Below are positions 1 through 34,422 of a DNA stretch of 64,000 nt, in pieces. This stretch comes from Laetmonice hystrix (lineage: Eukaryota): contig OZ249436.1 of the NCBI GenBank assembly GCA_965235115.1, positions 23,810,001 through 23,874,000 on the forward strand, read 5' to 3'. Below the pieces are notes generated by a model, which saw nothing but the letters and a program-made list of their open reading frames with translations, was not told the origin of the DNA and ran no database searches. Made by a program: the position numbers and the translations under genes. Each line of letters begins with the position of its first letter. The stretch's first letter is position 1.

Positions 1-2256
1 GTTTAATAGTAGGCCTAATTATGGTCCTATCTAGCACCGTTTACAGACCACTGAAAATCCTTAGAAAATGTGAATGACGTCACTATGACGTCATAGTTTA
101 TACGTCACGATAGGTAAAAATGTTGGTGTCAATTGCAAGAGTATTTAAGACTTACTATTCATGTTGAGTAGTAACCATGGCTCTATAATACCGTTTCAGA
201 GTTACAGTCATTTGTTTCTCAAAAATGGCTATGACCCAAATTCAATGTCACATGCCATTTCTCTTGTTTCAAAGTTTAGCACCTGGTCGCACCCCCCCCC
301 CCCCCCCCCCTGGCAATATCCCGGGTCATGGGCTGCCACATATCGCCATGTGGGAGGAAGGGGGTCCCCGATAAAATATAATATTTAGCCGACATATTGA
401 TATGTGACCATCCCTGGCCCAGATATTCTCCATCCAATACAATACAATATGTTTATTCACAACCTCGATGGAGGCAAAGGAACAGGGTCAGGGATTGTAT
501 CTTATAGTAGCACTGCTCACTCCATTTGCCACCGCCAGGGCCCAGCCCCCTAGCGTGAGGACAGTGTATAGTCGAGACGTGCTGCTACCTGGTGTCAAAC
601 TTCGCCCCCCCCCCCCCCCCCCCACGGTTGATTGTGTGCTAACAAGATGGGTTTTTGATTTCTTACTCTAGCCATTTCCTTAGCCAAAACGCAGCCATAC
701 TTTTTAAAACGTTACACACAAGAAGCTATAAATGTTTAATCTATACATCGACTTTCAAAGCAAAAGTCTACATTAAATATTTACAAAGACAGGCAGCAGT
801 AGCAATTCAAAGCCATAGCATTAAGCAGAAAGTCATAGCTCTTCAGAAAAGTATATGCTTGATGTGCGACAGGTCTGGCGTTCGATTCCCCATCAAGTCA
901 TTTGCTGTTTTCGTTTTGATGTTGTTTTTCGACTGAATTTGAAAAATATTATGTTTCTCCCCTTTACAATTGCCAGTCATTCGGCTACAGATAATTTACA
1001 GCTATATTTCACGTTTAATGACGAAATATACAGCATACGCCACTGTCTGCAGTGTGGACTTACTATGGAGAACGCCATTGGATTTAACTGAGTTTTGTTA
1101 GTAAATAGCTTCGGTCTTCACATGGCGAGTTCCATTCCGAGACTTGGAATCTCCTCTTCAAAGTTGCCTGACATTGAGCTAAATATCTACTTGAAGTACT
1201 CCCCATAGTTTTAGGCAGAAATATTAGATACTTATTAATACAGAGGGCGATAGGCTCAGCGTCCACAGTCGGCCCATCACGCGGACACCAAGCGAGGCCC
1301 CGACATCACTCACGAAACCAGGTTTCTAGGTCAATCGATCAGTGGTCAAATTGCCTGTCTCTCTTCACGACCTTCTCTTATATAATTGATCTCCGTATTG
1401 TTAATTATACATTTTGCCAATTGAAATTTATATTATCTTAAAGTAGACAGTTTAAAGTCCACACCGTGTAAATATTAAAACGCTGAGCTTATTGTCCTGT
1501 AGTTGAGACGTGCCCCAAATTAAGAAAGAGATGACGTTGTAGATGACGTTGTAGATGACGTCACAAGTCACGTGGCACAAAAAATATGGTACCTAATTAA
1601 AGTAGACATAAAACTTTCTAAGGTTCATTAAGAATTATGGCTCTGTCTCAAATCATTCAAGAGTTACAGCACAGAATCTTCGAAATGACCTAAGTCAAGC
1701 CCAAGTTCAAAACTTTCAGGTCACGTGGTTCAGCGAAAATAGGTCAAATCGCTTATCCACCAAGGAATCTGTTGGAGCTGTCCCTAGAGAGTGCCTCTGC
1801 GAAATATTGTCAAGAATTATCCAAAAATGGGGAAGAAGTAATGATTTAACCGATTTACGAGCTAGGGACCAGGTCTCTCTAAGTTCAAAGGTCAAAGGTC
1901 AAATGAAGGGTCAGACTTATGCAGCACCCTTGCCCGACTAAAATGCCAAGACGGATTTTCGAAATTCCCAAGATGAGGTTCAAAAATGAGCTTTAATGTA
2001 CACAACACGTTTCACGTCATGACGTCATGACGTGACGTTACGTGACGTCATGACGCACCATGAGATCAGAGTTTGTCATCGTGAAGACGTAGCCCAAGTT
2101 TCATTGAGATATCTTGAAAAATGACTGAGATATACGTATAGGTTTACGACTACTACGACTACGACTACTACTACTACTACTACTACTACAGGCATAAAAA
2201 TAAGGAAGACGAAACCAGACAATTTCAAGATCCCTTCCCCTATCGGGGGAAGGGAT
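1..2256 (-). mobile_element. HINE-like element, family D copy 1 (3' part outside the window)
   Basis: Near-identical to 13192-15454. Ends in (ACT)n and the hairpin ATCCCTTCCCC-TATCG-GGGGAAGGGAT (2230-2256). Confidence 0.8.
433..540 (-). mobile_element. Possible LINE (CR1/L2-like) 3' tail carried inside family D (second copy ~13647-13755)
   Basis: Minus strand ends ...GTTGTGAATAAACATATTGTATTGTATTG: AATAAA followed by a short (TATTG)n tail. No recognisable RT peptide. Confidence 0.3.
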
Positions 2257-2263
2257 AATAATA

Positions 2264-2318
2264 GGGAAGACGAAACCACACAATTTCAAAATCCCATCCC
2301 CCACTTGGGGGATGGGAT
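2264..2318 (-). mobile_element. Unmatched 5' terminus of a family A element (host of D copy 1)
   Basis: GGGAAGACGAAACCACACAATTTCAAA plus hairpin ATCCCATCCCCCA-CT-TGGGGGATGGGAT, matching the family A termini at 5388-5565. Confidence 0.75.
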
Positions 2319-2329
2319 AATAATAATAA

Positions 2330-5300
2330 CTAGAAACACTGATTGCTGAAGCAATACAGGGATCCCATCCCCCTGGTTATCATCACTTGTCAACACGTTG
2401 TGAACCCTGATGCAGTGCACACTGGGAAACTGTCGTGCCAAGCCACCTCTCAGATTCCATAACATGAAAACTATTGATTTTAGAGAAGCCATCTTGGTGT
2501 CACATACAGTTGACCTATTAAAAAATCTTGGATTGGTCTATTTGAATGCAATTACAAAATATCCTTTGGTAATCAGTACCAGTTCAATCCTATAATCACA
2601 TGTCTGAATTGCGTGGCGATGGTCAAGAGTGTTCGACTCCAATCGGAGAGGTCCTGGGATCAATCCAGGTACTCGGCATGTTTTTCACTTTTTTATTTTT
2701 CCCCCCTAATTTTTTAAAATAGTCACGTGACCTAAAAAAAATTATATAATAAAGAGCATATGTGACTTCCTATTCATGTACAATAGTAACCAAGGCTCCA
2801 TCTTTCACCGTTTAGAAGTTACAGCCAATTGTTTCTGAAAACGGCCATGACCCCAACTTCAATGCCACGTGGTACCCCTAAAATAGGTCACAGCGCTTTA
2901 TCATAAAGAAGCCCATTGAAGATCTCCATGGAGATTTCCTGAAATCAATTTGGGGTCGATTTGACCAAAAATGTGGGGCGTGAAACCATTTTGTCACTTT
3001 TTGACATATGACTTACATCTCAAGAAGGTTAAAGGTCAGGGGTCAAATGTAGTAACAAAGTTATGGGCACTTAAGTGATAAGGTCCCCGATATGAATAAA
3101 TTTTGTTCTGCTCCTCCAGGGACTCTAGAAATAAGCTATTTTCCCCAACTTTTGATTACGTCATAACTCTATGACGGTACGTCATATGACGTCATGCATA
3201 TAAAAATGAGTTGCGATGCCCATGAGCAAGAGTCCCACCAAGTTTCATTACGATACCTTAAGAAACAACTGAGAAATCGATCATTGTTAACTACTACTAC
3301 GGGTACTACTACTAATACTACAACTACAACAGGTATAATAATAATAACTAGAAACACTGATTGCTGAAGCAATACAGGGATCCCATCCCCCTGGTTATCA
3401 TCACTTGTCAACACGTTGTGAACCCTGATGCAGTGCACACTGGGAAACTGTCGTGCCAAGCCACTTCTCAGATTCCATAGCATGAAAACTATTGATTTTA
3501 GAGAAGCCATCTTGGTGTCACAGACAGTTGACCTATTAAAAAATCTTGGATTGGTCTATTTGAATGCAATTACAAAATATCCTTTGGTAATCAATACCAG
3601 TTCAATCCTGTAATCACATGTCAGAATTGCGTGGCGATGGTCAAGAGTGTTCGACTCGCATCGGAGAGGTCCTGGGATCAATCCCGGTACTTGGCATGTT
3701 TTTTACTTTTTTTATTTTCCCCCCTAATTTTTAAAAATAGTCACGTGACCTAAAAAAATTATATAATGAAGAGCATATATGACTTCCTATTCATGCTCAA
3801 TAGTAACCAAGGCTCCATCTTTCACCGTTTAGAAGTTACAGCCAATTGTTTCTGAAAACGGCCATGACCCCAACTTCAATGCCACGTGGTACCCTTAAAA
3901 TAGATCACAGCGCTTTATCCTAAAGAACCCTATTGAAGGTCCCCATGGAGATTTCCTGAAATCAATTTGGGGTCAATTCGATCAAAAATGTAGGGCGTGA
4001 AACAATTTTGTCACTTTTTGACATATGACTTACATCTCAAGAAGGTTAAAGGTCAGGGGTCAAATGTGGTAACAAAGTTATGGGCACTTAAGTGATAAGG
4101 TCTCCGATATGAATAAATTTTGTTCTGCTCCTCCAGGGAGTCTAGAAATAAGGTATTTTCCCCAACTTTTGATTACGTCATAACTCTATGACGTTACGTC
4201 ATATGACGTCATGCATATAAAAATGAGTTGCTATGCCCATGGGCAAGAGTCCCACCAAGTTTCATTACGATACCTTAAAAAACAACTGAGAAATCGATCA
4301 TTGTTAACTACTACTACGGGTACTACTACTACTACAACTACAACAGGTATAATAATAATAATAACTAGAAACACTGATTGCTGAAGCAATACAGGGATCC
4401 CATCCCCCTGGTTATCATCACTTGTCAACACGTTGTGAACCCTGATGCAGTGCACACTGGGAAACTGTCGTGCCAAGCCACTTCTCAGATTCCATAGCAT
4501 GAAAACTATTGATTTTAGAGAAGCCATCTTGGTGTCACAGACAGTTGACCTATTAAAAAATCTTGGATTGGTCTATTTGAATGCAATTACAAAATATCCT
4601 TTGGTAATCAATACCAGTTCAATCCTGTAATCACATGTCAGAATTGTGTGGCGATGGTCAAGAGTGTTCGACTCGCATCGGAGAGGTCCTGGGATCAATC
4701 CCGGTACTTGGCATGTTTTTTACTTTTTTTATTTTCCCCCCTAATTTTTAAAAATAGTCACGTGACCTAAAAAAATTATATAATGAAGAGCATATATGAC
4801 TTCCTATTCATGCTCAATAGTAACCAAGGCTCCATCTTTCACCGTTTAGAAGTTACAGCCAATTGTTTCTGAAAACGGCCATGACCCCAACTTCAATGCC
4901 ACGTGGTACCCTTAAAATAGATCACAGCGCTTTATCCTAAAGAACCCTATTGAAGGTCCCCATGGAGATTTCCTGAAATCAATTTGGGGTCAATTCGATC
5001 AAAAATGTAGGGCGTGAAACAATTTTGTCACTTTTTGACATATGACTTACATCTCAAGAAGGTTAAAGGTCAGGGGTCAAATGTGGTAACAAAGTTATGG
5101 GCACTTAAGTGATAAGGTCTCCGATATGAATAAATTTTGTTCTGCTCCTCCAGGGAGTCTAGAAATAAGGTATTTTCCCCAACTTTTGATTACGTCATAA
5201 CTCTATGACGTTACGTCATATGACGTCATGCATATAAAAATGAGTTGCTATGCCCATGGGCAAGAGTCCCACCAAGTTTCATTACGATACCTTAAAAAAC

Positions 5301-5565
5301 AACTGAGAAATCGATCATTGTTAACTACTACTACGGGTACTACTACTACTACAACTACAACAGGTATAATAATAATAATAATAATAGGGAAGATGAAACC
5401 ACACAATTTCAAAATCCCATCCCCCACTTGGGGGATGGGATAATAATAGGGAAGACGAAACCACACAATTTCAAAATCCCATCCCCCACTTGGGGGATGG
5501 GATAATAATAGGGAAGACGAAACCACACAATTTCAAAATCCCATCCCCCACTTGGGGGATGGGAT
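2330..5565 (-). mobile_element. Three nested family A HINE-like elements (~1.08 kb each): 2330-5565 > 3348-5503 > 4365-5441
   Basis: Three 3' ends (+ strand CTAGAAACACTGATTGCTGAAGCAATACAGGGATCCCATCCCC at 2330, 3348, 4365), then three stacked 5' hairpins (5414-5441, 5476-5503, 5538-5565). Confidence 0.85.
2602..2678 (+). promoter_or_regulatory. tRNA-derived Pol III A/B-box module in family A (also ~3619-3696, ~4636-4713)
   Basis: GTGGCGATGG (A-box-like) ... GGGATCAATCC (B-box-like), followed directly by T-runs. No canonical cloverleaf. Confidence 0.55.
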
Positions 5566-5567
5566 AA

Positions 5568-7296
5568 CTAGTCGCCAGGTGCCATGGGCACAGGTATCCC
5601 ATTCACCTATTGAGGTTATCATAGGTCGCGTGACCCAAAAAATATTGTGCCGAAGGAAAGATGACTTCCTTTGAGGGGCCATAACATGAAAACTATTGAT
5701 TTTAGGGGAGCCATTTCGGTGTCAGAGACAGCTGACCCATTACCCAATCCAACGGTATTAAAATCAAAAATTAGGTCAACTTGGCCGCCATGTTGGATTT
5801 TTCAAATTCGAGGAAAATGGGTCAAGTTTTCCATCCGAACCCCAATGACGAAAACCAGACGTTGATATCTTTAACCGTTTTAGAGATATCAATGATTTTT
5901 GGTTGAAAATGATCTAAAAGGGTCAACTTTGAGGGGCCATAACATGAAAACTATTGATTTTAGGGGAGCCATCTCGGTGTCAGAGACAGCTGACCCATTA
6001 CCCAATCCAATGGTGTTAAAATCAAAAATTAGGTCAACTTGGCCGCCATCTTGGATTTTTCAAATTCGAGGAAAATGGGTCAAGTTTTCCATCTTAACCC
6101 CAATGGCGAAAACCAGACGTTGATATCTTTAACCGTTTTAGAGATATCAATGATTTTTGGTTGAAAATGACCTAAAAAGGGTCATGGAGCCAGATGGGGT
6201 CACGTGACAGCATTTAAATAGGGAAATGAAAGGTGATATTAGATGTCCCATCAGTTTAGTTAGTAACAATGCACACATCTGGCTGTTTTTCCAAGTTACA
6301 GTCATCTGAAATTACCGATGACGTCATAGGGTCAGGTAGAGCCACGTGACCTAAATAAAAATGGTGTCATTTGAAAGGCCATATATGACTTCCTATCTGT
6401 CCCCAATAGTAACTATGGGCCTATCTAGCTCTGTTTCCAAGTTACTGCTAGCTGAAAATATCGATGACGTCATAGGATCACGTAGGGTCACGTGACCTAA
6501 ATAAAAATGGTGTCATTTGAAAGGCCATACATGACTTCCTATCTGTCTTCAATAGTAACCAATGGCCTATCTGGCTCTGTTTCCAAGTTACTGCTAGTTG
6601 AAAACACTGATGACGTCATGCAGCCATGTAGGGTCACGTGACCTAATTAAAAATGGTTTCATTTGAAAGGCCATCAATGACTTCCTATCTGTCTTCAATA
6701 GTAACTATGGGCCTATCTGGCTCTGTTTCCAAGTTATTACCACATATGTGTCATGAACATGTAAATTGACCCATCTACCAAAATTCAATGGCCCATATCT
6801 GGGTCAATATGGGTCAAATCGAATTTCTGTTGCGTAACTTTATGAATCCGGCCATGTAGTCTCTCAGGAGTCAATTTCAGCCTCATTTCCCTAAAATTCT
6901 GGCACGTGACACGATTTTGTCACATTTTGACCTTTGACCCATACCTCCAGAAGGTCAAAGGTCAGAGGTCAAACTGCCCTCCATAATTTAGCTAGTCACT
7001 TGTCCAATAATGATGATGGCAATAGTTTTTCGAAAGGTCTAATTTACAATGAAATACAGGCCTAAATATCTAGAACCGTTTTTACGTCATTACGTCATGA
7101 CGTTACGTCATATGACGTCATGGGTCAAATGGTCAACTTATCGTACCATGGCCAACCTATGTGCCAAGTTTCATTCAGATATCTTGAAAAACAATACCAA
7201 AGTTAACGGCACTACTACTACTACGGGAATAATAATAAAAAGGAAGATGAAACCATACAATTACAAAATCCCATTCACCTAGAAGGTGAATGGGAT
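5568..7296 (-). mobile_element. Family B HINE-like element, complete and uninterrupted (~1.73 kb)
   Basis: 3' end: CTAG, hairpin GTGCC-ATG-GGCAC, subTIR ATCCCATTCACC. 5' hairpin ATCCCATTCACC-TAGAA-GGTGAATGGGAT (7268-7296). Internal 258-bp duplication (5671/5929) and ~146-bp repeats. Confidence 0.85.
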
Positions 7297-9100
7297 AACT
7301 AGTCGCCAGGTGCCATGGGCACAGGTATCCCATTCACCTATTGAGGTTATCATAGGTCACGTGACCCAAAAAATATTGTGCCAAAAGAAAGATGACTTCC
7401 TTTGCGGGACCATAACATGAAAACTATTGAATTTAGGGGAGCCATTTCGGTGTCAGAGACAGCTGACCCATTACCCAATCCAATGGTATTAAAATAAAAA
7501 ATTAGGTCAAATTGGCCGCCATCTTGGATTTTTCAAATTCGAGGAAAATGGGTCAAGTTTTCCATCCAAACCCCAATGGCGAAAACCAGACGTTGATATC
7601 TTTAACCGTTTTAGAGATATCAATGATTTTTGGTTGAAAATGACCTAAAAGGGCCAACTTTGAGGGGCCATAACATGAAAACTATTGACTTTAGGGGAGC
7701 CATCTCGGTGTCAGAGACAGCTGACCCATTACCCAATCCAATGATGTTAAAATAAAAAATTAGGTCAACTTGGCCGCCATCTTGGATTTTTCAAATTCGA
7801 GGAAAATGGGTCAAGTTTTCCATCTTAACCCCAATGGCGAAAACCAGACGTTGATATCTTTAACCGTTTTAGAGATATCAATGATTTTTGGTTGAAAATG
7901 ACCTAAAAAGGGTCATGGAGCCAGATGGGGTCACGTGACAGCATTTAAATAGGGAAATGAAAGGTGATATTAGATGTCCCATGAGTTTAGTTAGTAACAA
8001 TGCACACATCTGGCTGTTTTTTTTCAAGTTACAGTCATCTGAAATTACCGATGACGTCATAGGGTCAGGTAGAGCCACGTGACCTAAATAAAAATGGTGT
8101 CATTTGAAAGGCCATATATGACTTCCTATCTGTCCCCAATAGTAACTATGGGCCTATCTAGCTCTGTTTCCAAGTTACTGCTAGCTGAAAATATCGATGA
8201 CGTCATAGGGTCACGTAGGGTCACGTGACCTAAATAAAAATGGTGTCATTTGAAAGGCCATACATGACTTCCTATCTGTCTTCAATAGTAACCAATGGCC
8301 TATCTGGCTCTGTTTCCAAGTTACTGCTAGCTGAAAACACTGATGACGTCATGCAGCCATGTAGGGTCACGTGACCTAATTAAAAATGGTTTCATTTGAA
8401 AGGCCATCTATGACTTCCTATCTGTCTTCAATAGTAACTATGGGCCTATCTGGCTCTGTTTCCAAGTTATTACCACATATGTGTCATGAACATGTAAATT
8501 GACCCATCTACCAAAATTCAATGGCCCATATCTGGGTCAATATGGGTCAAATCGAATTTCTGTTGCGTAACTTTATGAATCCGGCCATGTAGTCTCTCAG
8601 GAGTCAATTTCAGCCTTATTTCCCTAAAATTCTGGCACGTGACACGATTTTGTCACATTTTGACCTTTGACCCATACCTCCAGAAGGTCAAAGGTCAGAG
8701 GTCAAACTGCCCTCCATAATTTAGCTAGTCACTTGTCCAATAATGATGATGGCAATAGTTTTTCGAAAGGTCTAATGTACAATGAAATACAGGCCTAAAT
8801 ATCTGGAACCGTTTTTACGTCATTACGTCATGACGTTACGTCATATGACGTCATGGGTCGAATGGTCAACTTACCTTGCCATGGCCAACCTATGTGCCAA
8901 GTTTCATTCAGATATCTTGAAAAACAATACCAAAGTTAACGGCACTACTACTACGGGAATAATAACTAGTATAACAGATCGCAAAGCGATACTGGGATCC
9001 CATTCACCTCGAGCATTCTTTTAGCAATGGGGCAAGTATATACCATATAATGTCCCTTTAGCCACGCACTACCTATTTGCCGCGCACCCCAGAATAAGCA

Positions 9101-9536
9101 TGTCAGGCAGTATGGCTTGGTGGCAAGAAGTGGGACTCCCATTGGAAGGGTCCCGGGTTCAATCCCGGGACAAGTCACTTTTTAATTTTTTTGTTTTTCA
9201 CTCTCCAATTTTTTATAAATGGTTACGTGACCTAAAAAAAATCTATAATAAAAGGGCTTCCTGTCTGTCTTCAATAATCACTTAAGGCCTATCTGGCTCT
9301 GTTGCTAACATATTGCCAAGAATGTGTTAATTGACCGATGTACCAAATTTCAAGGGGTCATGTTTGGCTCTAACTTCATCCATTTACAAATTACAGCCCT
9401 CACAAAATATAGGTTCACTGCCTGTGATAATCAGTACCAGTTCAATCCAGAATGAGCATGTCAGACAGTATGGCTTGGTGGCAAGATGTGTGACTACCAT
9501 GGGACAGGACCTGAGTTCAATCCCGGGTCTAGTCAC
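9101..9536 (+). promoter_or_regulatory. Two tRNA-derived A/B-box modules in family C (9101-9177, 9459-9536; present in all eight copies)
   Basis: TGGCTTGGTGG (A-box) ... GGGTTCAATCC or GAGTTCAATCC (B-box), each followed by oligo-T. Confidence 0.6.
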
Positions 9537-10471
9537 GTTATTAATTTTTTTTGATTTTCCCCCTCTAATTTTAAAAAATGGTCACGTGACCTAAAAAAAA
9601 TATATAATAGAAGAGCATATATGAATTCCTATCTGTCTTCAATAGTAACTTAAGGTCTATCTGGCTCGGTTTCTAAGATATTGCTATGAATGTGTTAATT
9701 GACCCACGTACCAAAGTTCAAGGGCTCATAATTAGGTAAAAATGGGGGAGATCAAAATTCTGTGTCCGTAACTTTTCGAAACTCCCCATCTAGTCTCCCT
9801 AAACTCGATTTTGACTCAATTTGACTAAAATTCTGAAGCGTGAAAAGATTTGGTTCCATTTTGACCTATGACCTAGATCTCAACGAGGTCTAAGGTGAGA
9901 GGTCAAATTGCCCCCCAAAATCTTAGCCCCTACTTGCCCAATAAAGATGTCACTAATTGTTTTTCAAACGTTTCCATTTTCAATGAAATAGAGGCTCATA
10001 TATATAAACACGTATTACGTCATAACTCCATGACATAACGTCATATCACGTCATGACTCATATGCCTGATACCCAATCCCAATACCTATCTACAGACCAA
10101 GTTTCATTAAGATATCTTTAAAATAAATATCAAGTTGAGGCCCGAGGGTCACTACTACTACTACAGGAATAATAATAACTAGTGGCAAGGTGCCATTGGC
10201 ACAGGTATCCCATTCACCACTGGAGGTGACCATAGTCAAGTGCCCTCTCTAACAGCATTGAAACTATTAGATTAGGGGAGCCATCTCGGTGTCAGAGACA
10301 GCTGACCTATTACACAATCCAATGGTGTTAAATTAGGAAATTAGGTCAACTTGGCCGCCATCTTGGATTTTTTAAATTCAGGTCAAATGGGTTAAGTTTT
10401 CCACCCTCTGGTGAAAACCAGACATTGATATCTTTAACCGTTTTAGAGATATCAATGATTTTGGGTCACAT

Positions 10472-11750: not shown

Positions 11751-12230
11751 CTTTTGACCAGTTTTCCTCAACTTTGAGGTCACGTGACTCGCTTAATATA
11801 GGTCAGATCACTTATTCCCACCGTTCCTGTACTGAGGCCACTAATGTTCTTGCATGGGTTCAGTTTCATAGAATTTCTTTTAAATTTGAGGGAGTTGAAA
11901 GGATTTAAGCAATTTCTTTATTGTGACCTAGTTCTCCTATGGGCCAAAGGTCAAAGGTCAAACTGCCCTCCATAATTTTGCTAACCCCTTATCCAATAAT
12001 GATGATGGCAATAGTTTTTCAAAAAAGTCTAATTTACTATGAAATACAGGCCTATATATCTGGAACCGTTTTTACGTCATTACGTCATTACGTCATGACG
12101 TTACGTCATATGACGTCATGCGTCACATGGCCAACTCATCTTCCCATGGCCAACCTATGTGCCAAGTTTCATTGGGATATCTTGAAAATAGAGATACAAG
12201 TTAACGGAACTACTACAGGAATAATAATAA

Positions 12231-15200: not shown

Positions 15201-15454
15201 AATGAGCTTTAATGTACACAACACGTTTCACGTCATGACGTCATGACGTGACGTTACGTGACGTCATGACGCACCATGAGATCAGAGTTTGTCATCGTGA
15301 AGACGTAGCCCAAGTTTCATTGAGATATCCTGAAAAATGACTGAGATATACGTATAGGTTTACGACTACTACGACTACTACTACTACAGGCATAAAAATA
15401 AGGAAGACGAAACCAGACAATTTCAAGATCCCTTCCCCTATCGGGGGAAGGGAT
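12231..15454 (-). mobile_element. Family D copy 2, complete (~3.2 kb)
   Basis: 3' end: CTAG, ATTGCT-AA-AGCAAT hairpin, ATCCCTTCCCC. 5' hairpin ATCCCTTCCCC-TATCG-GGGGAAGGGAT (15428-15454). Confidence 0.85.
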
Positions 15455-15546
15455 AATAATAATAATAATAATAATAAAAAGGAAGGCGAAACCATACAAT
15501 TTCAAAATCCCATTCACCTGGAAGGTGAATGGGATAATAATAATAA

Positions 15547-21500: not shown

Positions 21501-21783
21501 CGGGGTCTAAGGTCAGAGGTCAAATTGCCCCCCAAAATCTTAGCCCCTACTTGCCCAATAAAGATGTCACTAATTGTTTTTCAAACGTTTCCATTTTCAA
21601 TGAAATAGAGGCTTATATATATAAACACGTATTACGTCATAACTCCATGACATAACGTCATATCACGTCATGACTCATATGCCTGATACCCAATCCCAAT
21701 ACCTACCTACAGACCAAGTTTCATTAAGATATCTTTAAAATAAATATCAAGTTGAGGCCCGAGGGTCACTACTACTACTACAG

Positions 21784-21819
<36 letters not shown>

Positions 21820-24563
21820 GGAAGACGAAACCATACAATTTCAAAATCCCATTCACCCTCTAGGGTGAATGGGATAATAATAATAATAAGGAAGACGAAA
21901 CCATACAATTTCAAAATCCCATTCACCCTCTAGGGTGAATGGGATAATAATAACTAGCATAACAGATCGCAAAGCGATACTGGGATCCCATTCACCTCGA
22001 GCATTCTTTTAGCAATGGGGCAAGTATATACCATATAATGTCCCTTTAGCCACACACTACTTATTTGCCGCACACCCCAGCATAAGCATGTCAGACAGTA
22101 TGGCTTGGTGGCAAGAAGTGGGACTCCCATTGGAAGGGTCCCGGGTTCAATCCCGGGACAAGTCACTTTTTAATTTTTTTGTTTTTCACTCTCCAATTTT
22201 TTATAAATGGTTACGTGACCTAAAAAAATCTATAATAAACGGGCTTCCTATCTGTCTTCAATAATCACTTAAGGCCTATCTGGCTCTGTTGCTAACATAT
22301 TGCCAAGAATGTGTTAATTGACCCATGTACCAAATTTCAAGGGCTCATGTTTGGCTCTAACTTCACCCATTTACAAATTACAGCCCTCACAAAATATTGG
22401 TTCACTGCATGTGATAATCAGTACCAGTTCAATCCAATATGAGCATGTAAGACAGTATGGCATGGTGGCAAGATGTGTGACTGCCGTGGGAAAGGATGTG
22501 AGTTCAATCCCGGGTCGAGTCACGTTATTAATTTTTTTTTTATTTTTCCCCTCTAATTTTAAAAAATGGTCACGTGACCTAAAAAAAATCTATAATAAAA
22601 GAGCATACTTGAATTCCTATTTGTCTTCAATAGTAACTTAAGGCCTATCTGGCTCTGTTTCTAAGATATTGGCATGAATGTGTTAATTGGCCGACGTACC
22701 AAAGTTCAAGGGCTCATAATTAGGTCAAAATGGGGGAGATCAAAATTCTGTGTCCGTAACTTTTTGAAACTCTCCATGTAGTCTCCCTAAACTCAATTTT
22801 GACTCAATTTGACTAAAATTCTGGAGCGTGAAAAGATTTGGTCACATTTCGACCTATGACCTAGATCTCAACGGGGTCTAAGGTCAGAGGTCAAATTGCC
22901 CCCCAAAATCTTAGCCCCTACTTGCCCAATAAAGATGTCACTAATTGTTTTTCAAACGTTTCCATTTTCAATGAAATAGAGGCTTATATATATAAACACG
23001 TATTACGTCATAACTCCATGACATAACGTCATATCACGTCATGACTCATATGCCTGATACCCAATCCCAATACCTATCTACAGACCAAGTTTCATTAAGA
23101 TATCTTTAAAATAAATATCAAGTTGAGGCCCGAGGGTCACTACTACTACTACTTGTATAATAATAATAAGGAAGACGAAACCATACAATTTCAAAATCCC
23201 ATTCACCCTCTAGGGTGAATGGGATAACTAGCATAACAGATCGCAAAGCGATACTGGGATCCCATTCACCTCGAGCATTCTTTTAGCAATGGGGCAAGTA
23301 TATACCATATAATGTCCCTTTAGCCGCACACTATTTATTTGCCTCGCACCCCAGCATAAGCATGTCAGACAGTATGGCTTGGTGGCAAGAAGTGGGACTC
23401 CCATCGGAAGGGTCCCGGGTTCAATCCCGGGACAAGGCACTTTTTAATTTTTTTGTTTTTCACTCTCCAATTTTTTTATAAATGGTTACGTGACCTAAAA
23501 AAAATCTATAATAAACGGGCTTCCTATCTGTCTTCAATAATCACTTAAGGCCTATCTGGCTCTGTTGCTAACATATTGCCAAGAATGTGTTAATTGACCC
23601 ATGTACCAAATTTCAAGGGCTCATGTTTGGCTCTAACTTCACGCATTTACAAATTACAGCCCTCACAAAATATTGGTTCACTGCATGTGATAATCAGTAC
23701 CAGTTCAATCCAATATGAGCATGTAAGACAGTATGGCAAGGTGGCAAGATGTGTGACTCCCGTGGGAAAGGATGTGAGTTGAATCCCGGGTCTAGTCACG
23801 TTATTAATTTTTTTTATTTTTCCCCTCTAATTTTAAAAAATGGTCACGTGACCTAAAAAAAATCTATAATAAAAGAGCATACTTGAATTCCTATCTGTCT
23901 TCAATAGTAACTTAAGGCCTATCTGGCTCTGTTTCTAAGATATTGGCATGAATGTGTTAATTGGCCGACGTACCAAAGTTCAAGTGCTCATAATTAGGTC
24001 AAAATGGGGGAGTTCAAAATTCTGTGTCCGTAACTTTTTGAAACTCCCCATCTAGTCTCCCTAAACTCAATTTTGACTCAATTTGACTAAAATTCTGGAG
24101 CGTGAAAAGATTTGGTCACATTTCGACCTATGACCTAGATCTCAACGAGGTCTAAGGTCAGAGGTCAAATTGCCCCCAAAAATCTTAGCCCCTACTTGCC
24201 CAATAAAGATGTCACTAATTGTTTTTCAAACGTTTCCATTTTCAATGAAATAGAGGCTCATATATATAAACACGTATTACGTCATAACTCCATGACATAA
24301 CGTCATATCACGTCATGACTCATATGCCTGATACCCAATCCCAATACCTATCTACAGACCAAGTTTCATTAAGATATCTTTAAAATAAATATCAAGTTGA
24401 GGCCCGAGGGTCACTACTACTACTACTTGTATAATAATAATAAGGAAGACGAAACCATACAATTTCAAAATCCCATTCACCCTCTAGGGTGAATGGGATA
24501 ATAATAAGGAAGACGAAACCATACAATTTCAAAATCCCATTCACCCTCTAGGGTGAATGGGAT
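15547..24563 (-). mobile_element. Family C copies 2-8 (~1.27 kb each): 15547-16817; 16881-24563 hosting 18094-19364, 19367-21945 (hosting 20583-21875), 21954-23225 and 23228-24499
   Basis: Seven near-identical bodies. Counting copy 1, there are eight 3' ends and eight C-type 5' hairpins (ending 16817, 16878, 19364, 21875, 21945, 23225, 24499, 24563). Confidence 0.85.
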
Positions 24564-24636
24564 AATAAAAAGGAAGATGAAACCATACAATTACAAAATC
24601 CCATTCACCTAGAGGGTGAATGGGATAATAATAAAA

Positions 24637-24761
24637 AGGAAGATGAAACCATACAATTACAAAATCCCATTCACCTAGAAGGTGAATGGGATAATAATAA
24701 GAAAAAGGAAGACGAAACCATACAATTACAAAATCCCATTCACCTAGAAGGTGAATGGGAT
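24637..24761 (-). mobile_element. Two unmatched family B 5' termini (bodies predicted upstream of the window)
   Basis: Hairpins 24664-24692 and 24733-24761 match the B terminus at 7268-7296. Confidence 0.7.
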
Positions 24762-27172
24762 AATAACTAGCGCCGATGTGGCTTGGGCCAACATCTTGTA
24801 TCCCATCCCCTGGCAATGAAAATCATAGATACATTATCATGTTAGACTACCTCCACGTCATCGATAGGCCCGTAGATCGAAAGAGCATATATTATTTCTT
24901 CCTATATGACCTCAATAATTAATATTGGTCATCTATCAATGACGTCATTGTCACGTAATACGTCCCCCTACATAATAGATGTTGTTACCTTTTGAAAAAA
25001 CATGTACCTATTATAGCTTCAATAGTAACCATAGCTCTACCTGGCCCCCTTTCAGAGTTATAGCTGTTTCAATAATATTGGTGATCTATCAACATCGATT
25101 TTCTTTTTCATTTCGATTTTGGAGACCCCTCTGCCGAAAATCCTGGGCCCGTGGCTGTATTTTGAGTTAGCCTAACAATAATGTTTGTCAATTCTTCAAA
25201 AAGAAAGAGTGGGGATAGGGCCTATATAGAGGGGGCCCACGCCAGGCAGCGCCAGGCAGGCCCTTCAGTGCTAGCGACTACCGCCCGGCAATCAATTTTT
25301 TCTTTCCTATAGTTATTTCTTCTTTCCTACAGCTATATTCTCACTGTGATCTCACCATTTGATCTCTCACTGTGAGATCATTTTGACATCTCTCTGACAT
25401 AAAACAGTACCAATATATTGGGCTTTCCTTAGAAGAATACGATCTTACAGCAATCTCATAGCGATCTAACCATGATCTCAATTTCTTCTCACACTGTGAG
25501 ATCATTTTGACATCTCTCTGACATAACAGTACCAATATATTTTTGAAATGACGTTGTCGCACCACCTTCCTGGGTTCCCACAAGGACATTCTAGAAAAAA
25601 TCCTGGCTTAATCAGTTCTAACCATTGCGTGGGCACGCTGTAGTATCTCCTGTGCCAGTTAAGCACTGACGCTAAACACCCGTACCCCCGTCCTCACTAT
25701 TGATGTTTCCCGTCGGAAATTCAAATTGGTTTTTCTATACTGGGTTGTTTTAAAATTAAAAAAATATCATCTCTACGTCCCTGTATTGTTCTTTTCACAA
25801 TTAGCGAAAAAATAAAGCGTAATTTTACACAATGATAGCTGTTTTTGAATGACATGACGTGAATTATTTGAAGTCGCTAGAAGTTCACCTATTGACTGTG
25901 TTTCGGACAGTCTAGTCAATCTCAATGATAACAGCGCCACCACCTGAGATTTACATGATGTCAAGGTGATGTCGGAATTTTATAACATTTTGACATCAGA
26001 AAGGTCTCAATATTTGTTCTCACATAGTGAAGTCATTATGAGATTGCTGTGAGATCAATGTGTGATCTTACTAGCTGAGATTTACGTGATATCAAGGTGA
26101 TGTTGGAATTTTATAACATTCTGACATCAGAAAGATCTCACTATTTGTTCTCGCATAGTGATATCATTATGGGATTGCTGTGAGATCAATGTGTGATCTC
26201 ACCAGCTGACATTTATGTGATATCAGGGTGATGTCGGAATTATATCTCATTCTGACCTCATGAGATCATACTGACATCATAATGATTGCGACTTCACACC
26301 TGTGAGGAAAAAGTGACCTCACTGTGATCTCAGCGTTAGCTCACTTCCCGACTGGGAAGGATTTAGCTAGGCCTATGGCAAATTGTCCCTTTGTGTATTC
26401 TGAATACACAATCACATTCCTCCAACCCCTCCCTGACTGGGAGGAAAATATAGGGCGCAGCTGGCCAAGAGTTCTCTCTTAACTTCAAGAAGACGGCTTA
26501 ATATCATCAGTGTTGTTTTATTCCGCTGTCCTCCAATATAAGATTCAAGAATATAATATATTAGACAGTAATACCTACAGTTTTATATAAATACAAATGC
26601 CCAGCTATTCAATTAAGTATTTTCCCAGCACAAGGGTCCATCAACATCAACCCATCCTGACTGGGGGGAATGGGGCAGTCACCGCCCGACCTTATCAGCA
26701 GCAGTTACGTAACACTGCCAACACCGGGCAGGGAGAGGCGGCTGGCCATGCACAGCGGGTGATTTGTGTATTCAGAGATGCCAACCGTTAGTGTAAAAAT
26801 ATCATTGTTATCCATTAAAACTTACAATTCTGGTCAAATTATCTTTTAAAAAAAAGAACTAAACAATCAGTGGTATACCTGAATCTATAGACTTTGTAAT
26901 TGTTGTATTTGTATGTGGCTATCTTAAACATGTTTCAAGGTACAGACTGTCAAAGCTAGATTAAAGATATTTCATCATAAATTAAAAATTATTGGTAAAT
27001 TTATGAAAAGGATTATGCAAAGTGATCAATCGTCAATGCCAGCACATATCTAATTACCAAATACACGATTCCTAAATGACTGAAGCCGTTTTAGAAAAAA
27101 ATGTCAAAAGTGACAAACTTCAAAGTCACGTGGTACAGCGAAAATAGGTCTAATGGCTTATTGCTGAAGTTT

Positions 27173-27817
27173 TCCAGTCGCTGTGATATCAATTTGAAAT
27201 CACATATCTTACTGTGATCTCACCATTTGATCACTCACTGTGAGATCATTTTGACATCTCTCTGACATAACAGTACCAATATATTTGGCTTTGCTTAAAA
27301 GAATACGATCTCACAGCAATCTCATAGCGATCTAACCATGATCTCAATTTCTTCTCACACTGTGACATCATTTGGACATCTCTCTGACATAACAGTACCA
27401 ATATATTTTTGAAATGACGTTGTCGCACCACCTTCCTGGGTTCCCATAGGGACACTCTAGAAAAAATCCTGGCTTAGGCAGTTCTAACCATTGCGTGGGC
27501 ACGCTATAGTATCTCCTGTGCCAGTTAAGCACTGACGCTTAACACCCATACCCCGTCCTCACTATTGATGTTTCCCGTCGGAAATTCAAATTGGTGTTTA
27601 CGTGATATCAAGGTGATGTCGGAATTTTATAACATTCTGACATCAGAAAGATCTCACTACAATTGTTCTCGCATAGTGATATCATTATGGGATTGCTGTG
27701 AGATCAATGTGTGATCTCACCAGCTGACATTTATGTCATATCAGGGTGATTTCGGAATTATATCTCATTCTGACCTCATGAGATCATACTCAGCGTTAGC
27801 TCACATACCCGACTGGG
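27173..27817. mobile_element. MITE-like insert with CCAGTCG...CGACTGGG ends and GTGAGATC/GATCTCAC subterminal repeats; longer partial copy at ~25340-26356
   Basis: Short inverted ends plus many oriented subterminal repeats, an architecture resembling CMC/EnSpm elements. TSD not resolved. Confidence 0.5.
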
Positions 27818-28828
27818 AAGGGTTTAGCTCTAGGCCTATGGCAAATTGTCACTTTGTGTATTCTGAATACACAATCACATTCTTCCAACCCCAACCTGAC
27901 TGGGAGGAAGAGGGGGAGTAGTAACCGACCCGCCGGGCGGCCGGCCCTTATCACCAGCACTTACGTAACCCCCTGCCGACCCTGGGCCTGGCTTCACCGC
28001 GGGCGTTCTGTATATTCAGAAATGCCAACCGTCAGTGTAAACATATTAATGTTATCCATTAAAACTTACAATTCTGGCCAGATTACCTTTCCAAAAAAAG
28101 AACTAAACAATCAATGGTATACCTGAATCTATAGACTTTGTAATTGTTCTATTTGTATGTGGCTATCTTAAACACGTTTTATGGTAGAGCCTGCAAAGTC
28201 AGATAAGATATATTTTATCATAAATTAAAAATTATTGGTAAATTTATGAAAAGAATTATTCACAGTGATCAATCGTCAATAGCAGCACATATCTAGTGAC
28301 CAAATAGACGATTCCTAAATGACTGAAATGGTTTTAGAAAAAAATGTCAAAAGTGACAAACTTCAAAGTCACGTGGTACAGCGACAATAGGTCAAATTGC
28401 TTATTCCCGACTCGAGCAAATAAAGCTCACTACAGAAGACCTGTCCACCAAAAAGTATTATATTTTCTCAAAAAATGGCACAGGAGTAGGAATTTGACCA
28501 CTTTAGGACATATGACCTACTTTTCCATGACGTCAAAGGTCAAAGGTCAAAATAATGAAGATTAGTAAAAAGGGTCTATGCCCGATTATTAGACTATGAA
28601 AAGTTTTGGGAAACTATGGATTATGACTTCAAGAAATGCCTATAAGTTTGAAATGCAAAATACGTCATGACGTCATGACGTGACGTCGTATGACGTAATA
28701 ATTATAGGGATCGATTCTCCCTACCATTCTGAATGTCCATGCCAAGTTTTATTTGGATATCTGTATCAATGACTGAGCTGTATGCACAAAAGCAACTACT
28801 ACAACTACTACTACTACTACGGGAATAA

Positions 28829-30536
28829 CTAGATAGGATGTGGCGATAGCCACATTATGAATCCCATCCCCCTGGGGCGTTTCCGTCCGACCCATTGTAT
28901 TCTATTCGTTTTCAACATGAAACATTGCTCCATCTTGTACCTTTCACAAGAAATTCCAATGCCATCATTATCATAGGCATCGGAAGATAATTTTCCAGGG
29001 GGGGGGGCAAAGATACAGGGTTCAGCACCGTTTAGCATGTGCAGGCCTGTGGAAATTTTGAGAATATGTCAATGACGTCAATATGACGTCATACGATATG
29101 CTATATAATAAATATTAAAAGAGCATATCTTTCCATCGTGTTTAAGAGTGACTATGGGCCTTTCTGGCACCGTTTAGCAGTTACACTTACAGGACAAAGT
29201 AAATCATTAAGCGACACAGCAGGATTATACTAAAATATGAACATACTTATACCTTTATAAGGTGATTTTACGTTACTATGCGAGTATTATGCATTTTATC
29301 TTTTATTTTTGTGATTAGGCTCTGAGCCAAACAGAGCAGTGCTTTATACAGTCTGCAATTTGGTGGCTCCATCTGTAGGTGCTGCGATCCCGGCCTTGTA
29401 GAACCAATGGGCGAGCGCTAAGGGATAGGACATGCCTCAGCAAATATTGAGATTTGAATGCTTTGGCCCATTTTGGAGCAAAAGAAAGGTATTAAATTGC
29501 ATGTAAAACGGGATGATTTTCAAGATAGGCCCTAAAGAGAATTTCCTTTCAGATGGTGTAGTCAGCTATTTACAGAATGTACAACAGTTCATATAGGCTG
29601 AAAGTTTGAAAAATAAACACCACTTTTTCGGCACCCATGTTCACATAGTAGCATATGCGGCCACCAGGGGGCGGCAGGTAAGCGTGGGAACACACGTGTC
29701 CTCAGCCCTTCGCCTGCCGAGCAGCGCCATGAACTTCTGCAGAATGATGCTTTTTAATATAGTTTTCGAAGGCGCCTCTTTGCCAGTAGCAGGGATATGG
29801 TGGCCAAATGGTTAAATCTACGATAAACCAGGGAACCGTGCTTTTGAACGGTGTATATCCTTTATTTATACAACCCTACTTAACATGCGGTATGAAAGAA
29901 AGAATATACCACAGTTATCATGTCGCTATAATTACCTTCACCACCACCCCCCCCCCCCCCCATCCCAAAGCAAAATCCTGGATCATCCGCCAGTCTTTTA
30001 TGGGGATATTTAATGAAACAGAACGCAGTGCAGTGGGCAGTGTCCAGGTGTGTGTATGTGAGTAGAAAGTAAATCTTGTGGGTTTTGGGCCAAAATCGGG
30101 TTCGTCTGTTCTGAGAACTGTTGGTCAGGGAATCATACCTATACCTAGATGAAGGGTTTGCAGCAGTAGCGGTGGCGACCTTCCCTCCCGCCAGGACGTC
30201 CCTTCCACCGCCAGTCCCCCTCCCCAGCCTGCTGACTTCAGTCCGATTAAGGAGAAGGGCGTCTGTCACCCCCGATCCCCATATACCAAGTACTAACTAA
30301 CTGCTGTTCCAAATAATGTGGCCATAATAATGTGGGTCTTATTCAATGTGTTACTGATATCTCAGTCACCCTAACCCCCATGTACCCAAGCACTAATTAG
30401 GCCTACTCTGGTACTTCTCCAAATAATGTGGTCTTAATAATGTGGGTCTTATTTAATGTCTTACTGATGAAGATGTGGTGAAAAAAGGGGAGCTTTTTCA
30501 AGTAGAAAATGTGGCAAGGCTAGCCATATAAAGATC

Positions 30537-30606
<70 letters not shown>

Positions 30607-33600
30607 TTAACCAACAGCAACAAGGGTGGGGGTTGCAGAAGATAATTGCAGGTCACTAATTGATCCCTTAATTTATGTGCAGACCGCCACTGCCTGCCTG
30701 TCTGCGCTCCATCTATTAATAGGGTTGGGAGAGACATGTGCGGTCAGACAACATGTGCAAGCATTTCAAAAACTTAGACCCCCTACATGTAACGAATGAT
30801 TAGGCCTACTTCCTTTCATTATTAGAAGTCTCCTCAAAAGGTTTGATACCAGGTAACAAAACTCGCAACGGCGATACGGCCATAATTGTGGTCAGTGTGA
30901 GCAAGGAGTATAGAATTCTATACTCGTTGGTGTGAGCAGGGGAGGCAGGCAGGCAGGCGGGCGGGCGTTCATTGCAGGGTGTCTGCTGCCAACATCCCCC
31001 ATCTCTTTCCAACCGTCGCCTGCCCAAACTATAATGAGTATTGCCTTTATATTTTAGAGGCCTGAAGCTTAACATGTTAGCAAGCTACTCCTAAAATTTC
31101 ATGACGAAGGATGTGATAATGTCGGATATATACACATGCTCTACTTTTAGTCTACCATAGCGACCGTGTCCACGCAGGACTGACCCACATAAGAGAGGGA
31201 ACATGTCACTAAGTAGGTCATCCATTAATCGTGAAATTCGCCGCCTGTCCTCACTATTTTGGTATATATTGAACTGCTGTCTTGTTAATTATAAATTTTG
31301 CTCATTGAAATTTATAATATAAAATAGCAGACACTTTAAAGTCCCTACCCTATACATATTAAAGGGTGTGAGCTTACCATTCCGTCGCTAATGCAAATTA
31401 TACAAATGACGTTGTAGATGACGTAAGAAGTCACGTGACACAAAAATTATGATACCTAATTAAAGAGGCCACCAAAGTGTATCAGGTTCATGAACAATTA
31501 TGCCCCTGTCTGGAGTCTTTCAAACGTTACAGCGATTATTCTCCGAAAAGACCCACATTCAAAACTTCAAGGTCACGTGGTTCTGTGAAAATAGATCAAA
31601 TTGCTTATCCGCTGCTCTATTTTTTGAAGCTTTCATTGGAGAATGTTTTTACCCTATATTATCAAATTTTACCCCAAAATGGGGAAGCATTTACGATTTA
31701 ACCGATTTGTGACGTTTGACCCAGTTCTCCCTAAGGTCAAAGGCCAAAGGTCAAATTAAGGGTCATATTTAGGCAACACCCTTGCCTGATTATAGTGGCA
31801 CGAGGTATTTTTGAAATTCCCGATATGGGCTGAGAAAATGGGCCTAAATGTACAAAAGAAAATCTACGTCATAACGTCATGACATGACGTCATATGACGT
31901 CATGCTTCAAACTGGCATTTCTCTCTGGTGTCCTTAATATGCCTACCAAGTTTCGTATTGATATCTTGAAAAATGAGCGAGATATGATGCTATAAGGGAA
32001 TGAGTCTAACTACTACAACCTACGGGAACTAGATAGGATGTGGCGATGGCCACATTATGAATCCCATCCCCCTGGGGCGTTCCCGTTCTACTAATTTTCA
32101 ACATGAAACATGGCTCCGTCTTGCACCTATCACAAGTTATAATCCTTGCCTTAATAGATGCCAATAATGTCATTATGATGTCAGACAGTACCCTGCTGTA
32201 CATCATGAATCTTGGCGTCAAATGAAAGCAGGGTTCCCTGCTTTTTGTGAACATCCAATTCCCTGAGTGTTTTCCTGAGAATTCCCTGAGAAATTTCCAA
32301 AATTCCATGTGATATATATTTGTGTTTTATAGGTAGCATAACCGATTATAACGGTCCGGAGAGGTGCATTCTTCACACTCTATCAACATTACAAAGCCAC
32401 GATATAAATAAGTCATTTTTTCAGGGATTCCAATACCGTCATAATATGATCATTATGGTCTCCGGTCGATCTGGCCCATGACCGATATGGCCTGGTTGAT
32501 ATGGCCCAGGTAGTTGGTCAATATGGCCCACCCCCGGTCAATATGGTACACTAGCTAGCTTTTCACGGTAATGCCATCATGAGTTGCTAGTCTGGGAATA
32601 TTTCCCTTTGAGGCTGAAGGTGGAGATGTCAGCACCTGTACCTGAGTGTGAGAAAGCTTTTGACGGCACGCTGCATAAATAATATTGGTATCAATTGAAA
32701 GAGCATAATCTTTCCATTCATGTTTAATAGTAACTATGAGAGTATCTCGCACCGTTTAGCAGTTTTACTTACAGGCCTCTGAAAATCGTTATAGTACTCC
32801 ACAACATATCTAGTGCAACTCTCCTCCTATGTAAGATTCAAAAACATCTATGTATTAGACAGTTATACCTACAGTTCAGAACCACAGTTAATTCAGTTAT
32901 GTCTGTTCTGAATACACATAGGCCTAATCCTCCAACCCTGCCCTGATTGGGAGGAAAGGGGGAGTATAGTGACTCACGACCCACCGGCCCAAACTGTGAA
33001 ATCTATCCACATCAATCTGCTGGCTCACTAAACCAAGGACAGCTGGCCAAGAGTTGTTTTGTAACTTTAAGAAGACAGCCTTCATGAGAGTTTTGTTTTA
33101 TTGCTTTCCTCCAATATAAGATTAAAAAAATATGTATTAGACAGTTACACATACAGCTCTAAAGCACAGCTAATTCAGTTGGGGCTGTTCTGGACATACA
33201 GATTCCTCCAACCCCACCCTGACTGGGACGACCGGGTAGTCGACACCAGCCGGCCTTATCAGCAGCAATTACATAACTCTCAGCCCCGGCCAGCGCCGGG
33301 CGGCACCAGCTCACACTGCGGGCGGTCTGTGTATACAGAGACTGCAACCATCCTAGTGCCAAACATAATAATTTGTGAAGACTATACCCATGAAAACTTA
33401 TGATTTTGGCTATATTGCCTTTCGAGAAAAAGAATTAAACAATCAGTGGTATACCTGACTCTATGCACTTTATAACAGACGTACTTGCATATGGCTATGT
33501 TCAATACCTTTCAAGATACAGCCCGTAGAAGTTCGGTTACATAAATCAGAAAGATGACGTCATAGATGACATCACAAGTCTCGTGATACAAAAATTATGG

Positions 33601-34295
33601 TACGTAATTAAAGAGGACATAAACCTTTATAAAGTTAATGAACAATTAAGGCTCTGTCTTAAATCTTTCAAAAGTTACAGCAAGGACCTTTCAAAATGAC
33701 CGAAGTTCAAAATTTCAAGGTCACGTGGTTCAGTGAAAATAGGTCAAATTGCTAAACCCGATGCACCAGTTTTTGGAGCTTTCAGTGGAGAATGTTTCTA
33801 CCAGATATTGTCAAATTTCACCAAGAAATGGGGAAGAAGACGCGATTTAACCGATTTGTGACCTCTGACCCAGTTCTCTCTAAGCTTAAAGGTCAAAGGT
33901 CAAATCAAGTGTCAGATTTAGGCAACACCCATGCCTGATTATATTGCTATGAGGCGTTTTTGAAATTCCCAATATGAGCTTAGAAAATGGGCCTCAATGC
34001 ACAAAACACAATTTACGTCATGACGTCATGACGTGACGTCATATGACGTCATGCTTCAAACTGGCAATACTCTTTGGCGTCCTTAATATGCCTACCAAGT
34101 TTTGCTTTGATATCATGAAAAATGAGCGAGATATGGATATATTTAGTGAATAGTCTAACTACTACGGGAATAATAATACAGAAGATGAAACCACACAATT
34201 TCAAAATCCCATCCCCTTGATGGGGGATGGGATAATAATACGGAAGATGAAACCACACAATTTCAAAATCCCATCCCCTTGATGGGGGATGGGAT
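28829..34295 (-). mobile_element. Family F elements: F1 28829-34295 hosting F2 32029-34233
   Basis: Two 3' ends CTAGATAGG-ATGTGGC-GATR-GCCACAT-TATGA-ATCCCATCCCC and two identical 5' hairpins (34206-34233, 34268-34295). Confidence 0.78.
30537..30596. repeat. (GA)n microsatellite
   Basis: About 30 uninterrupted GA units. Confidence 0.95.
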
Positions 34296-34364
34296 AATAA
34301 TACGGAAGACGAAACCATACAATTTTAAGATCCCATCCCCCTATCGGGGGGATGGGATAATAAA

Positions 34365-34422
34365 AAGGAAGACGAAACCATACAATTTCAAAATCCCATT
34401 CACCCTTTAGGGTGAATGGGAT
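34365..34422 (-). mobile_element. Unmatched C-like 5' terminus: outer edge of the nested stack
   Basis: ATCCCATTCACCCT-TT-AGGGTGAATGGGAT (34393-34422); unrelated sequence follows. Confidence 0.7.

What the first reader, a model, noticed from the sequence alone, without database searches (positions are those of the whole stretch)
2230..34422. Family-specific subTIR 'keys' co-vary at three positions per element
Seen: the 11-12-bp subTIR near the 3' end equals both arms of the 5' hairpin 1-3 kb away and changes in concert. It is ATCCCATCCCC in A, E, F and G; ATCCCATTCACC in B, B' and C; ATCCCTTCCCC in D. Hairpin loops and the small 3' hairpins (ATTGCT/AGCAAT, GTGCC/GGCAC, ATCGC/GCGAT, ATGTGGC/GCCACAT) differ in sequence but keep their structure. 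Inference: compensatory change points to end-to-end pairing of single-stranded DNA or family-specific transposase recognition, which could let an element find its own end past nested foreign ends.
Basis: partly seen in the sequence, partly recalled or inferred. Interest (0 to 1): 0.72.

Follow-up and report, generated by a model that had tools for sequence, protein, structure and literature searches.

The report
Matched ends of nested Helentron transposons
Small gene-less rolling-circle transposons stacked inside one another each carry the same 11-base word at three places in their ends, changed in step between lineages; this matching, and the idea that the ends likely base-pair during copying, is already published for this transposon group.

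Summary
The minus strand of 1-34422 is a nest of non-autonomous Helitron2/Helentron (HINE) elements whose ends parse like brackets. In 20 of 20 complete elements of the window the 11-nt key is identical in 5' hairpin arm 1, arm 2 and the 3' subTIR (0 of 440 mismatches). It is also published: Bao and Jurka 2013 report compensatory changes in these repeats and propose that they pair, and Thomas 2014 defines Helentron families by subTIR. The scan found the same covariation before on other DNA of this genome (e1-9080424). 'Family-specific' is overstated: one key is shared by six lineages up to 50% divergent, and 17 of 22 nestings are same-key, so keys mostly cannot separate own from nested ends. 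Spacer and 3' tails are shared across keys, which favours pairing over key-specific transposases without proving it. One new lead: element D holds an internal 3' end with a fourth key (12314-12357) and ends at its own key about 85 nt later; a damaged CTAGT in that internal end is an equally good explanation.

The parts
1..2256 (-). Element D, second copy, cut by the window start; key K3 ATCCCTTCCCC, hairpin 2230-2256
   Evidence: 29 substitutions to the full D over about 2216 nt
2291..2318 (-). Open A head (K1 ATCCCATCCCC), host of the partial D; its 3' end would lie left of the window
2329..5565 (-). A1[A2[A3]]: three nested A copies (2329-5565, 3347-5503, 4364-5441), K1, about 1.08 kb each when emptied
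5567..7296 (-). B1, uninterrupted copy, key K2 ATCCCATTCACC, 1730 nt
7298..24626 (-). B2 (K2), 1731 nt when emptied, host of the C, B' and D copies
8965..16878 (-). C_g (K2) holding C_h (15546-16817) and B'[D]
10178..15535 (-). B' (K2), 2133 nt when emptied, host of D
12230..15454 (-). D, full copy, K3, 3225 nt; mosaic of an H/J-like 5' body and an A-like 3' tail; subTIR 12263-12273, hairpin 15428-15454
12314..12357 (-). Internal 3' end inside D with a fourth key (K4, subTIR GGGAAATGGGAT at 12346-12357), 8-bp hairpin 12325-12343, ending CTCGT, followed by a TTA-rich tract
   Evidence: 0 such hits in 300 shuffles of 20.8 kb of element interiors
16880..24563 (-). C_a (K2) holding C_f 18093-19364, C_d 19366-21945 with C_e 20582-21875, C_c 21953-23225, C_b 23227-24499
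24664..24761 (-). Two open B heads (K2), 24664-24692 and 24733-24761
24766..34358 (-). E[F[G]]: E 24766-34358, F 28828-34295, G 32028-34233, all K1; 4125, 3262 and 2206 nt when emptied
34393..34422 (-). Outermost open head (K2), right border of the nest
44322..44374 (+). Head remnant with K4 arm 2 (44332-44343), a short arm-1 remnant that pairs with it, and a diverged spacer
54560..57974 (+). Second stack, all K1: complete J (54621-56212) and H (56468-57974), five open heads (54560, 56214, 56279, 56344, 56406)

Best explanation
These are nested, protein-less Helitron2/Helentron (HINE-type) elements whose 11-12-nt key is identical at three places within each element, likely because arm 1 of the 5' hairpin has to pair in turn with arm 2 and with the 3' subTIR during rolling-circle copying. 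Shown: anatomy T-key-loop-key'-spacer-(TTA)n-(GTA)n-body-key'-small hairpin-CTAGT; matched keys; insertion of later copies in the (TTA)n tract 61-81 nt inside a head. Inferred: a transposase made elsewhere nicks the 5' end, displaces one strand, and ends or joins at CTAGT once the subTIR meets arm 1; selection then acts on self-complementarity, so positions 6 and 8-10 can drift if all three places follow, while the outer ATCCC, the spacer and CTAGT stay fixed as likely protein contacts. The key is a match check shared by many lineages, not a family barcode.
For: 0 of 440 mismatches in 20 elements. Identical K1 in bodies 39-50% apart, while loops and tails diverge. Spacer nearly constant across keys, and tails of A, D and C homologous under three keys. 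Compensatory pairs in the small 3' hairpin: ATTGC/GCAAT in A and D against ATCGC/GCGAT in C. In computed joined-end junctions the subTIR:arm-1 fold lies only 0.7-4.7 kcal/mol above the head hairpin in 10 of 10 lineages. Anatomy and pairing model as in PMC3627910 section 9.
Against: No experiment on Helitron2 ends was found (0 papers). The subTIR pairs with arm 1 over more bases than arm 2 does in only 2 of 10 lineages (F, G, by 1 nt), so there is no toehold and the head hairpin wins in all 10 folds. Identity of subTIR with arm 2 as a direct repeat extends past the stem in B1, D and H, which fits protein reading or copying as well. Only three substitutions carry the covariation. The genome-wide test with sequencing runs gave no usable rows for arm 2 or the subTIR.
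Confidence: 0.55

Rival explanations
1. Each key is read by its own transposase, which binds the three copies as protein sites; keys mark which autonomous partner moves which element.
For: Thomas 2014 define Helentron families by subTIR and say HINEs share termini with their partners; different subTIR types coexist in D. willistoni. Direct-repeat identity of subTIR and arm 2 reaches 12-14 nt in B1, D, H.
Against: Spacer and tails do not diverge with the key; K3 differs from K1 by one base; elements of different keys use the same landing tract (5 of 22 nestings cross keys). No autonomous element is in the window.
Confidence: 0.25
2. The match is made by copying, not kept by function: in the joined-end circle or a head-to-tail tandem the three repeats lie within about 90 nt, and template switching among them would spread a mutation to all three (quasi-palindrome correction, recalled).
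For: Six exact CTAGT-T-ATCCC abutments exist in the window. D has a head/body from one lineage and a tail from another yet one key at all three places. It avoids unfit mismatched intermediates.
Against: Copying alone does not explain why K1 is unchanged across bodies 39-50% apart, nor why matching stops at 11-14 nt.
Confidence: 0.15
3. Keys act as a termination code that lets an element read through any 3' end with a foreign key and stop only at its own.
For: D holds a K4 subTIR with an intact 8-bp hairpin about 85 nt before its own K3 subTIR. Cognate arm-1:subTIR duplexes are 5-9 kcal/mol more stable than K1/K2 crosses.
Against: That internal end reads CTCGT, not CTAGT; even intact canonical Helitron ends are read through in about 11.7% of events (PMC4778049). 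17 of 22 nestings are same-key. K3 arm 1 pairs with A/F/G subTIRs only 0.9 kcal/mol worse than with its own. C_a with C_f and C_g with C_h look like one duplicated same-key composite.
Confidence: 0.2

Closest known systems
Helitron2 with asymmetric terminal inverted repeats (Bao and Jurka 2013, PMC3627910; passages and section 9 read, figure 5C not seen)
   Same: 5' ATIR 0-2 nt from the end folded in a 5' hairpin, 3' ATIR before a 3' hairpin, 5' T, compensatory changes in the complementary segments of two related elements, and the proposal that 5' and 3' ATIR pair to set the endpoint.
   Different: Here four keys coexist in one nest; the subTIR lies 29-34 nt from the end; all ends read CTAGT; copies target a tract inside their own heads.
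HINE / DINE-1 non-autonomous Helentrons (Thomas 2014, PMC4067079; Yang and Barbash 2008, PMC2374699; passages read, supplements not opened)
   Same: subTIRs, inverted repeat beside the 5' subTIR, microsatellite, central tandem repeats, 3' stem-loop with compensatory change, TT insertion, no ORF; subTIR differs among species and among three types within D. willistoni; families defined by 11 or more identical subTIR bases.
   Different: Autonomous partner not identified here; deep bracket-ordered nesting is not described in the passages read.
FoHeli non-canonical Helitrons of Fusarium oxysporum (Chellapan 2016, PMC5148889; passages read)
   Same: ATIRs that differ between subgroups, joined-end circles, self-insertion, several 5' termini on one 3' terminus explained by stopping at the first 3' end.
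   Different: No internal end of another key reported in the passages read; nests are shallow.
Helraiser, canonical Helitron1 (Grabundzija 2016, PMC4778049; passages read)
   Same: CTAG near the 3' end, terminator hairpin, head-to-tail circles, read-through of 3' ends.
   Different: No subTIR or 5' hairpin key; TC start and AT target.

Membership tests
Helitron2/HLE2 (HINE) | 5' ATIR of 8-15 bp, 0-2 nt from the 5' end, forming a 5' hairpin | tested here: met
   11-14-bp stems starting 1 nt inside the inferred end; 30 of 30 heads
Helitron2/HLE2 (HINE) | 3' ATIR matching the 5' ATIR, subterminal, directly before a hairpin | tested here: met
   20 of 20 complete elements; 29-34 nt from the end; tail hairpins -4.0 to -7.0 kcal/mol in 10 of 10 lineages
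Helitron2/HLE2 (HINE) | Insertion between T and T without target duplication | tested here: inconclusive
   All 19 minus-strand 3' ends are followed by T and emptied E restores G's intact tract; G in F shows no 3-bp duplication. No paralogous empty site was available, the T before the heads was required by the search pattern, and a TT duplication cannot be excluded in a TTA tract.
HINE / DINE-1-like | Microsatellite near the 5' end and central tandem repeats | tested here: met
   (TTA)n and (GTA)n behind the spacer; about 146-nt repeats in B, B', H
HINE / DINE-1-like | No coding capacity | tested here: met
   No stop-to-stop frame above 155 aa in the window; two of 128 and 138 aa in 1-34422
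Helentron | Autonomous partner with Rep/Helicase/endonuclease sharing the subTIR | not testable with these tools
Helitron1 (canonical) | 5' TC, 3' CTRR, A|T target, no terminal inverted repeats | tested here: not met
   CTAG is present, but there is no TC start and ATIRs are present; the insertion at 54560 would fall at G|T under the A|T reading

The most novel reading that the evidence does not exclude
The key is a base-paired termination code: the head captures only a subTIR with its own key, so an element reads through foreign-key ends. Element D would be a natural record of this (K3 head, bypassed K4 end with intact hairpin, K3 end), and four keys one or two bases apart in one genome would give a ready-made specificity series for the untested Helitron2 end-pairing model.
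Probability: 0.2. Interest if true: 0.55.

Novelty: already known. Interest (0 to 1): 0.2.

Why it matters
As found, it is a clean example of a published hallmark of Helitron2/HINE ends. Its use is practical: four natural key variants, exact bracket pairing and one internal foreign end define the constructs needed to test whether these ends pair or are read by protein, for which the searches here found no experiment. If keys did select the terminator, that would explain when these elements carry nested DNA along and when they shed stacks of spare heads.

Tried and rejected
Own-genome search: none held, so solo copies and chimeras could not be counted genome-wide. Sequencing runs: 4 listed, 3 holding 77-82% of the words, one sample, possibly the source of the window. 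Laying them on 2259-2392 gave 3 variant rows; only one is in the key (position 8, C>T, 4-8% of summed depth, which fits K2 or K4); no row for arm 2 or the subTIR, so covariation was not testable. One low-depth contig there has an arm 2 that does not match arm 1, read as decay of one copy. Laying on 12150-15700 showed 40 of 401 variant rows, none in a key; one low-depth contig follows the K4 end from 12311 with 25 unaligned bases beyond, a weak hint that it is a real terminus elsewhere. Run X1 (share 0.14) is no evidence. Key-guided targeting: 6 of 11 cross-lineage nestings are same-key against 3.7 expected, p = 0.095, with non-independent cases; not supported. Toehold for strand exchange: not found. 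Single origin of K2: the body tree needs 3 key changes (least possible 2), and a K2 clade is neither found nor rejected (p-AU 0.19). Assembly artefact or plain satellite: rejected, since copies differ by 1-53 substitutions and heads pair with their own bodies. The head-hairpin energy for E was a script error, corrected. Weak internal key-like sites in D (1830, 1481), F, C, H, J have no convincing hairpin and were dropped. Look-ups of earlier findings by words and by the D end sequence returned nothing.

Full report
What is there. Read on the minus strand, each element starts with T, the key, a 3-6-nt loop, the key's complement, a 26-nt spacer, a (TTA)n tract and a (GTA)n microsatellite, and ends with the key's complement, a small hairpin and CTAGT. 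A last-in-first-out parse finds 23 heads and 18 tails in 1-34422; all 18 tails pair with a head of their own type, and 5 heads remain open towards the left edge. The first parse missed four tails and was discarded. Removing nested inserts gives elements of 1078-4125 nt, and all 15 inserts with a complete host sit 61-81 nt inside its head, in the TTA tract. A second stack on the plus strand adds two complete elements, H and J, five open heads and one orphan tail.

The match. In 20 of 20 complete elements the 11-nt key is the same in arm 1, arm 2 and the subTIR: 0 of 440 mismatches. Random pairing gives p = 6.6e-7 by copies and 1.2e-3 by lineages. The independent content is small: one substitution for K3 and two for K2, in 2-3 changes on the body tree. 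Even so, the chance that the two other places carry exactly those changes is about 3e-9. Two damaged items were left out of the count: a copy at about 49935-51434 with one subTIR mismatch and no CTAGT, and a head remnant at 44322 without a 3' end. The small 3' hairpins also show compensatory pairs between homologous tails, A and D against C.

Limits of the 'family key' reading. K1 is shared by A, E, F, G, H and J, whose bodies differ by up to 50% and fall on both sides of the best-supported split of the tree. Of 22 nestings 17 are same-key, 11 of them same-lineage; among the 11 cross-lineage cases 6 are same-key against 3.7 expected, p = 0.095. So keys mostly cannot tell an element's own end from a nested one, and do not clearly guide targeting. 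The two D copies sit in different hosts, so no host was copied along with a foreign-key guest. C_a with C_f and C_g with C_h differ by 2 and 1 substitutions and look like one duplicated same-key composite; unequal exchange within the array explains that as well as transposition does.

Pairing, protein or copying. The spacer is nearly constant across keys, and the tails of A, D and C are 68-82% identical yet carry three different keys. D joins an H/J-like 5' body (support 95/95) to an A-like tail and has K3 at all three places. The key therefore follows the head, not the tail's ancestry or the other end signals. I infer that what is kept is self-complementarity, with ATCCC, spacer and CTAGT as the likely protein contacts. 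Computed joined-end junctions fold into the head hairpin in 10 of 10 lineages, with the subTIR:arm-1 fold 0.7-4.7 kcal/mol higher; three natural head-to-tail junctions also fold into the head hairpin. The switch is feasible but has no toehold, so it would need protein help. Key-specific transposases and template switching among the three nearby repeats (recalled mechanism, not from a call) remain open.

One case for read-through. Inside D, 12314-12357 is a further 3' end: a fourth key, an 8-bp hairpin, and CTCGT 32 nt after the subTIR, then a TTA-rich tract, about 85 nt before D's own subTIR. No such site arose in 300 shuffles of 20.8 kb of interiors. The same 12-mer is arm 2 of the head remnant at 44332, so K4 is a real key. 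D's interior is covered at summed depths far above the low-depth contigs of the same runs, so D is repeated, but that every copy carries this internal end was not shown; the second window copy is cut before it. The damaged CTAGT explains read-through without any key, and intact canonical Helitron ends were read through in about 11.7% of events in cells (PMC4778049, passages).

What is known. Bao and Jurka 2013 (PMC3627910; passages and section 9) describe this anatomy for Helitron2, note compensatory mutations between two related elements, and propose that 5' and 3' ATIR pairing sets the endpoint. Thomas 2014 (PMC4067079; passages) define families by 11 or more identical subTIR bases, which makes 'family-specific key' true by definition. 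Yang and Barbash 2008 (PMC2374699; passages) list subTIRs that differ among Drosophila species and three types in one species. Chellapan 2016 (PMC5148889; passages) describe self-insertion and multiple 5' ends. HELIANO (PMC11417382; passages) gives the HLE2 criteria; PMC13085455 (passages) added nothing. Figures and supplements of these papers were not seen; their tables of termini may hold further multi-key examples. Searches showed no experiment on Helitron2 ends and no report of key-dependent read-through, judged from listings and the passages above. Earlier notes of this scan report the same covariation (e1-9080424) and the nesting many times in this genome; they are unchecked and not independent.

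Verdict. Real, well above chance, and already known. Interest 0.2. The remaining lead is the fourth-key end inside D, which needs a whole-assembly count.

Noticed in passing
window 49879-49970: A proper 3' tail (CTAGT, hairpin) on the minus strand is fused to arm 2 of an inverted copy of a K1 head, forming a near-perfect 46-nt palindrome (-30.2 kcal/mol) at the start of a decayed plus-strand copy; looks like a head-plus-tail mini element or a fold-back product. Unexplained.
   Followed up: partly
window 54560-59360: Plus-strand stack with five open K1 heads, two complete elements and a further E/G-like body (57975 to about 59358) without a 3' end; excess heads as in the stop-at-first-end model of PMC5148889, or a later deletion.
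   Followed up: partly
window 54621-54680: Element J lacks most of the spacer and the TTA tract yet is complete and has a second, 5'-truncated relative ending at 54539.
   Followed up: partly
window 8965-24563: C copies fall into subtypes; C_c and C_e have near-identical bodies (3 substitutions) but different tract ends, suggesting exchange within the array.
   Followed up: partly
window about 49633-51652: Element with terminal inverted repeats (CCTTATCCACTGAG-like) and a possible TA duplication, enclosing the decayed HINE copy; an apparent empty site lies near 59330. Seen by eye.
   Followed up: no
window about 44061-45212: MITE-like element with GGGCCCGGTTG terminal inverted repeats that encloses the K4 remnant. 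Seen by eye.
   Followed up: no
window about 45460-46220: Exon-like pieces that look like calcium-binding EGF repeats followed by a hydrophobic stretch; probably a host gene. Seen by eye.
   Followed up: no
window about 60050-63420: Tandem array of a roughly 340-nt unit with truncated variants; it contains a tRNA-like B-box motif (GGAATCGAACCC). Seen by eye.
   Followed up: no
window 59525-59651: 127-nt piece of element A, 98% identical, on the minus strand, far from the nest.
   Followed up: no
window about 47590-49500: Another HINE-like body with a (GTAC/GTCC)-type microsatellite and repeat modules related to B and H, without the keys studied here.
   Followed up: no
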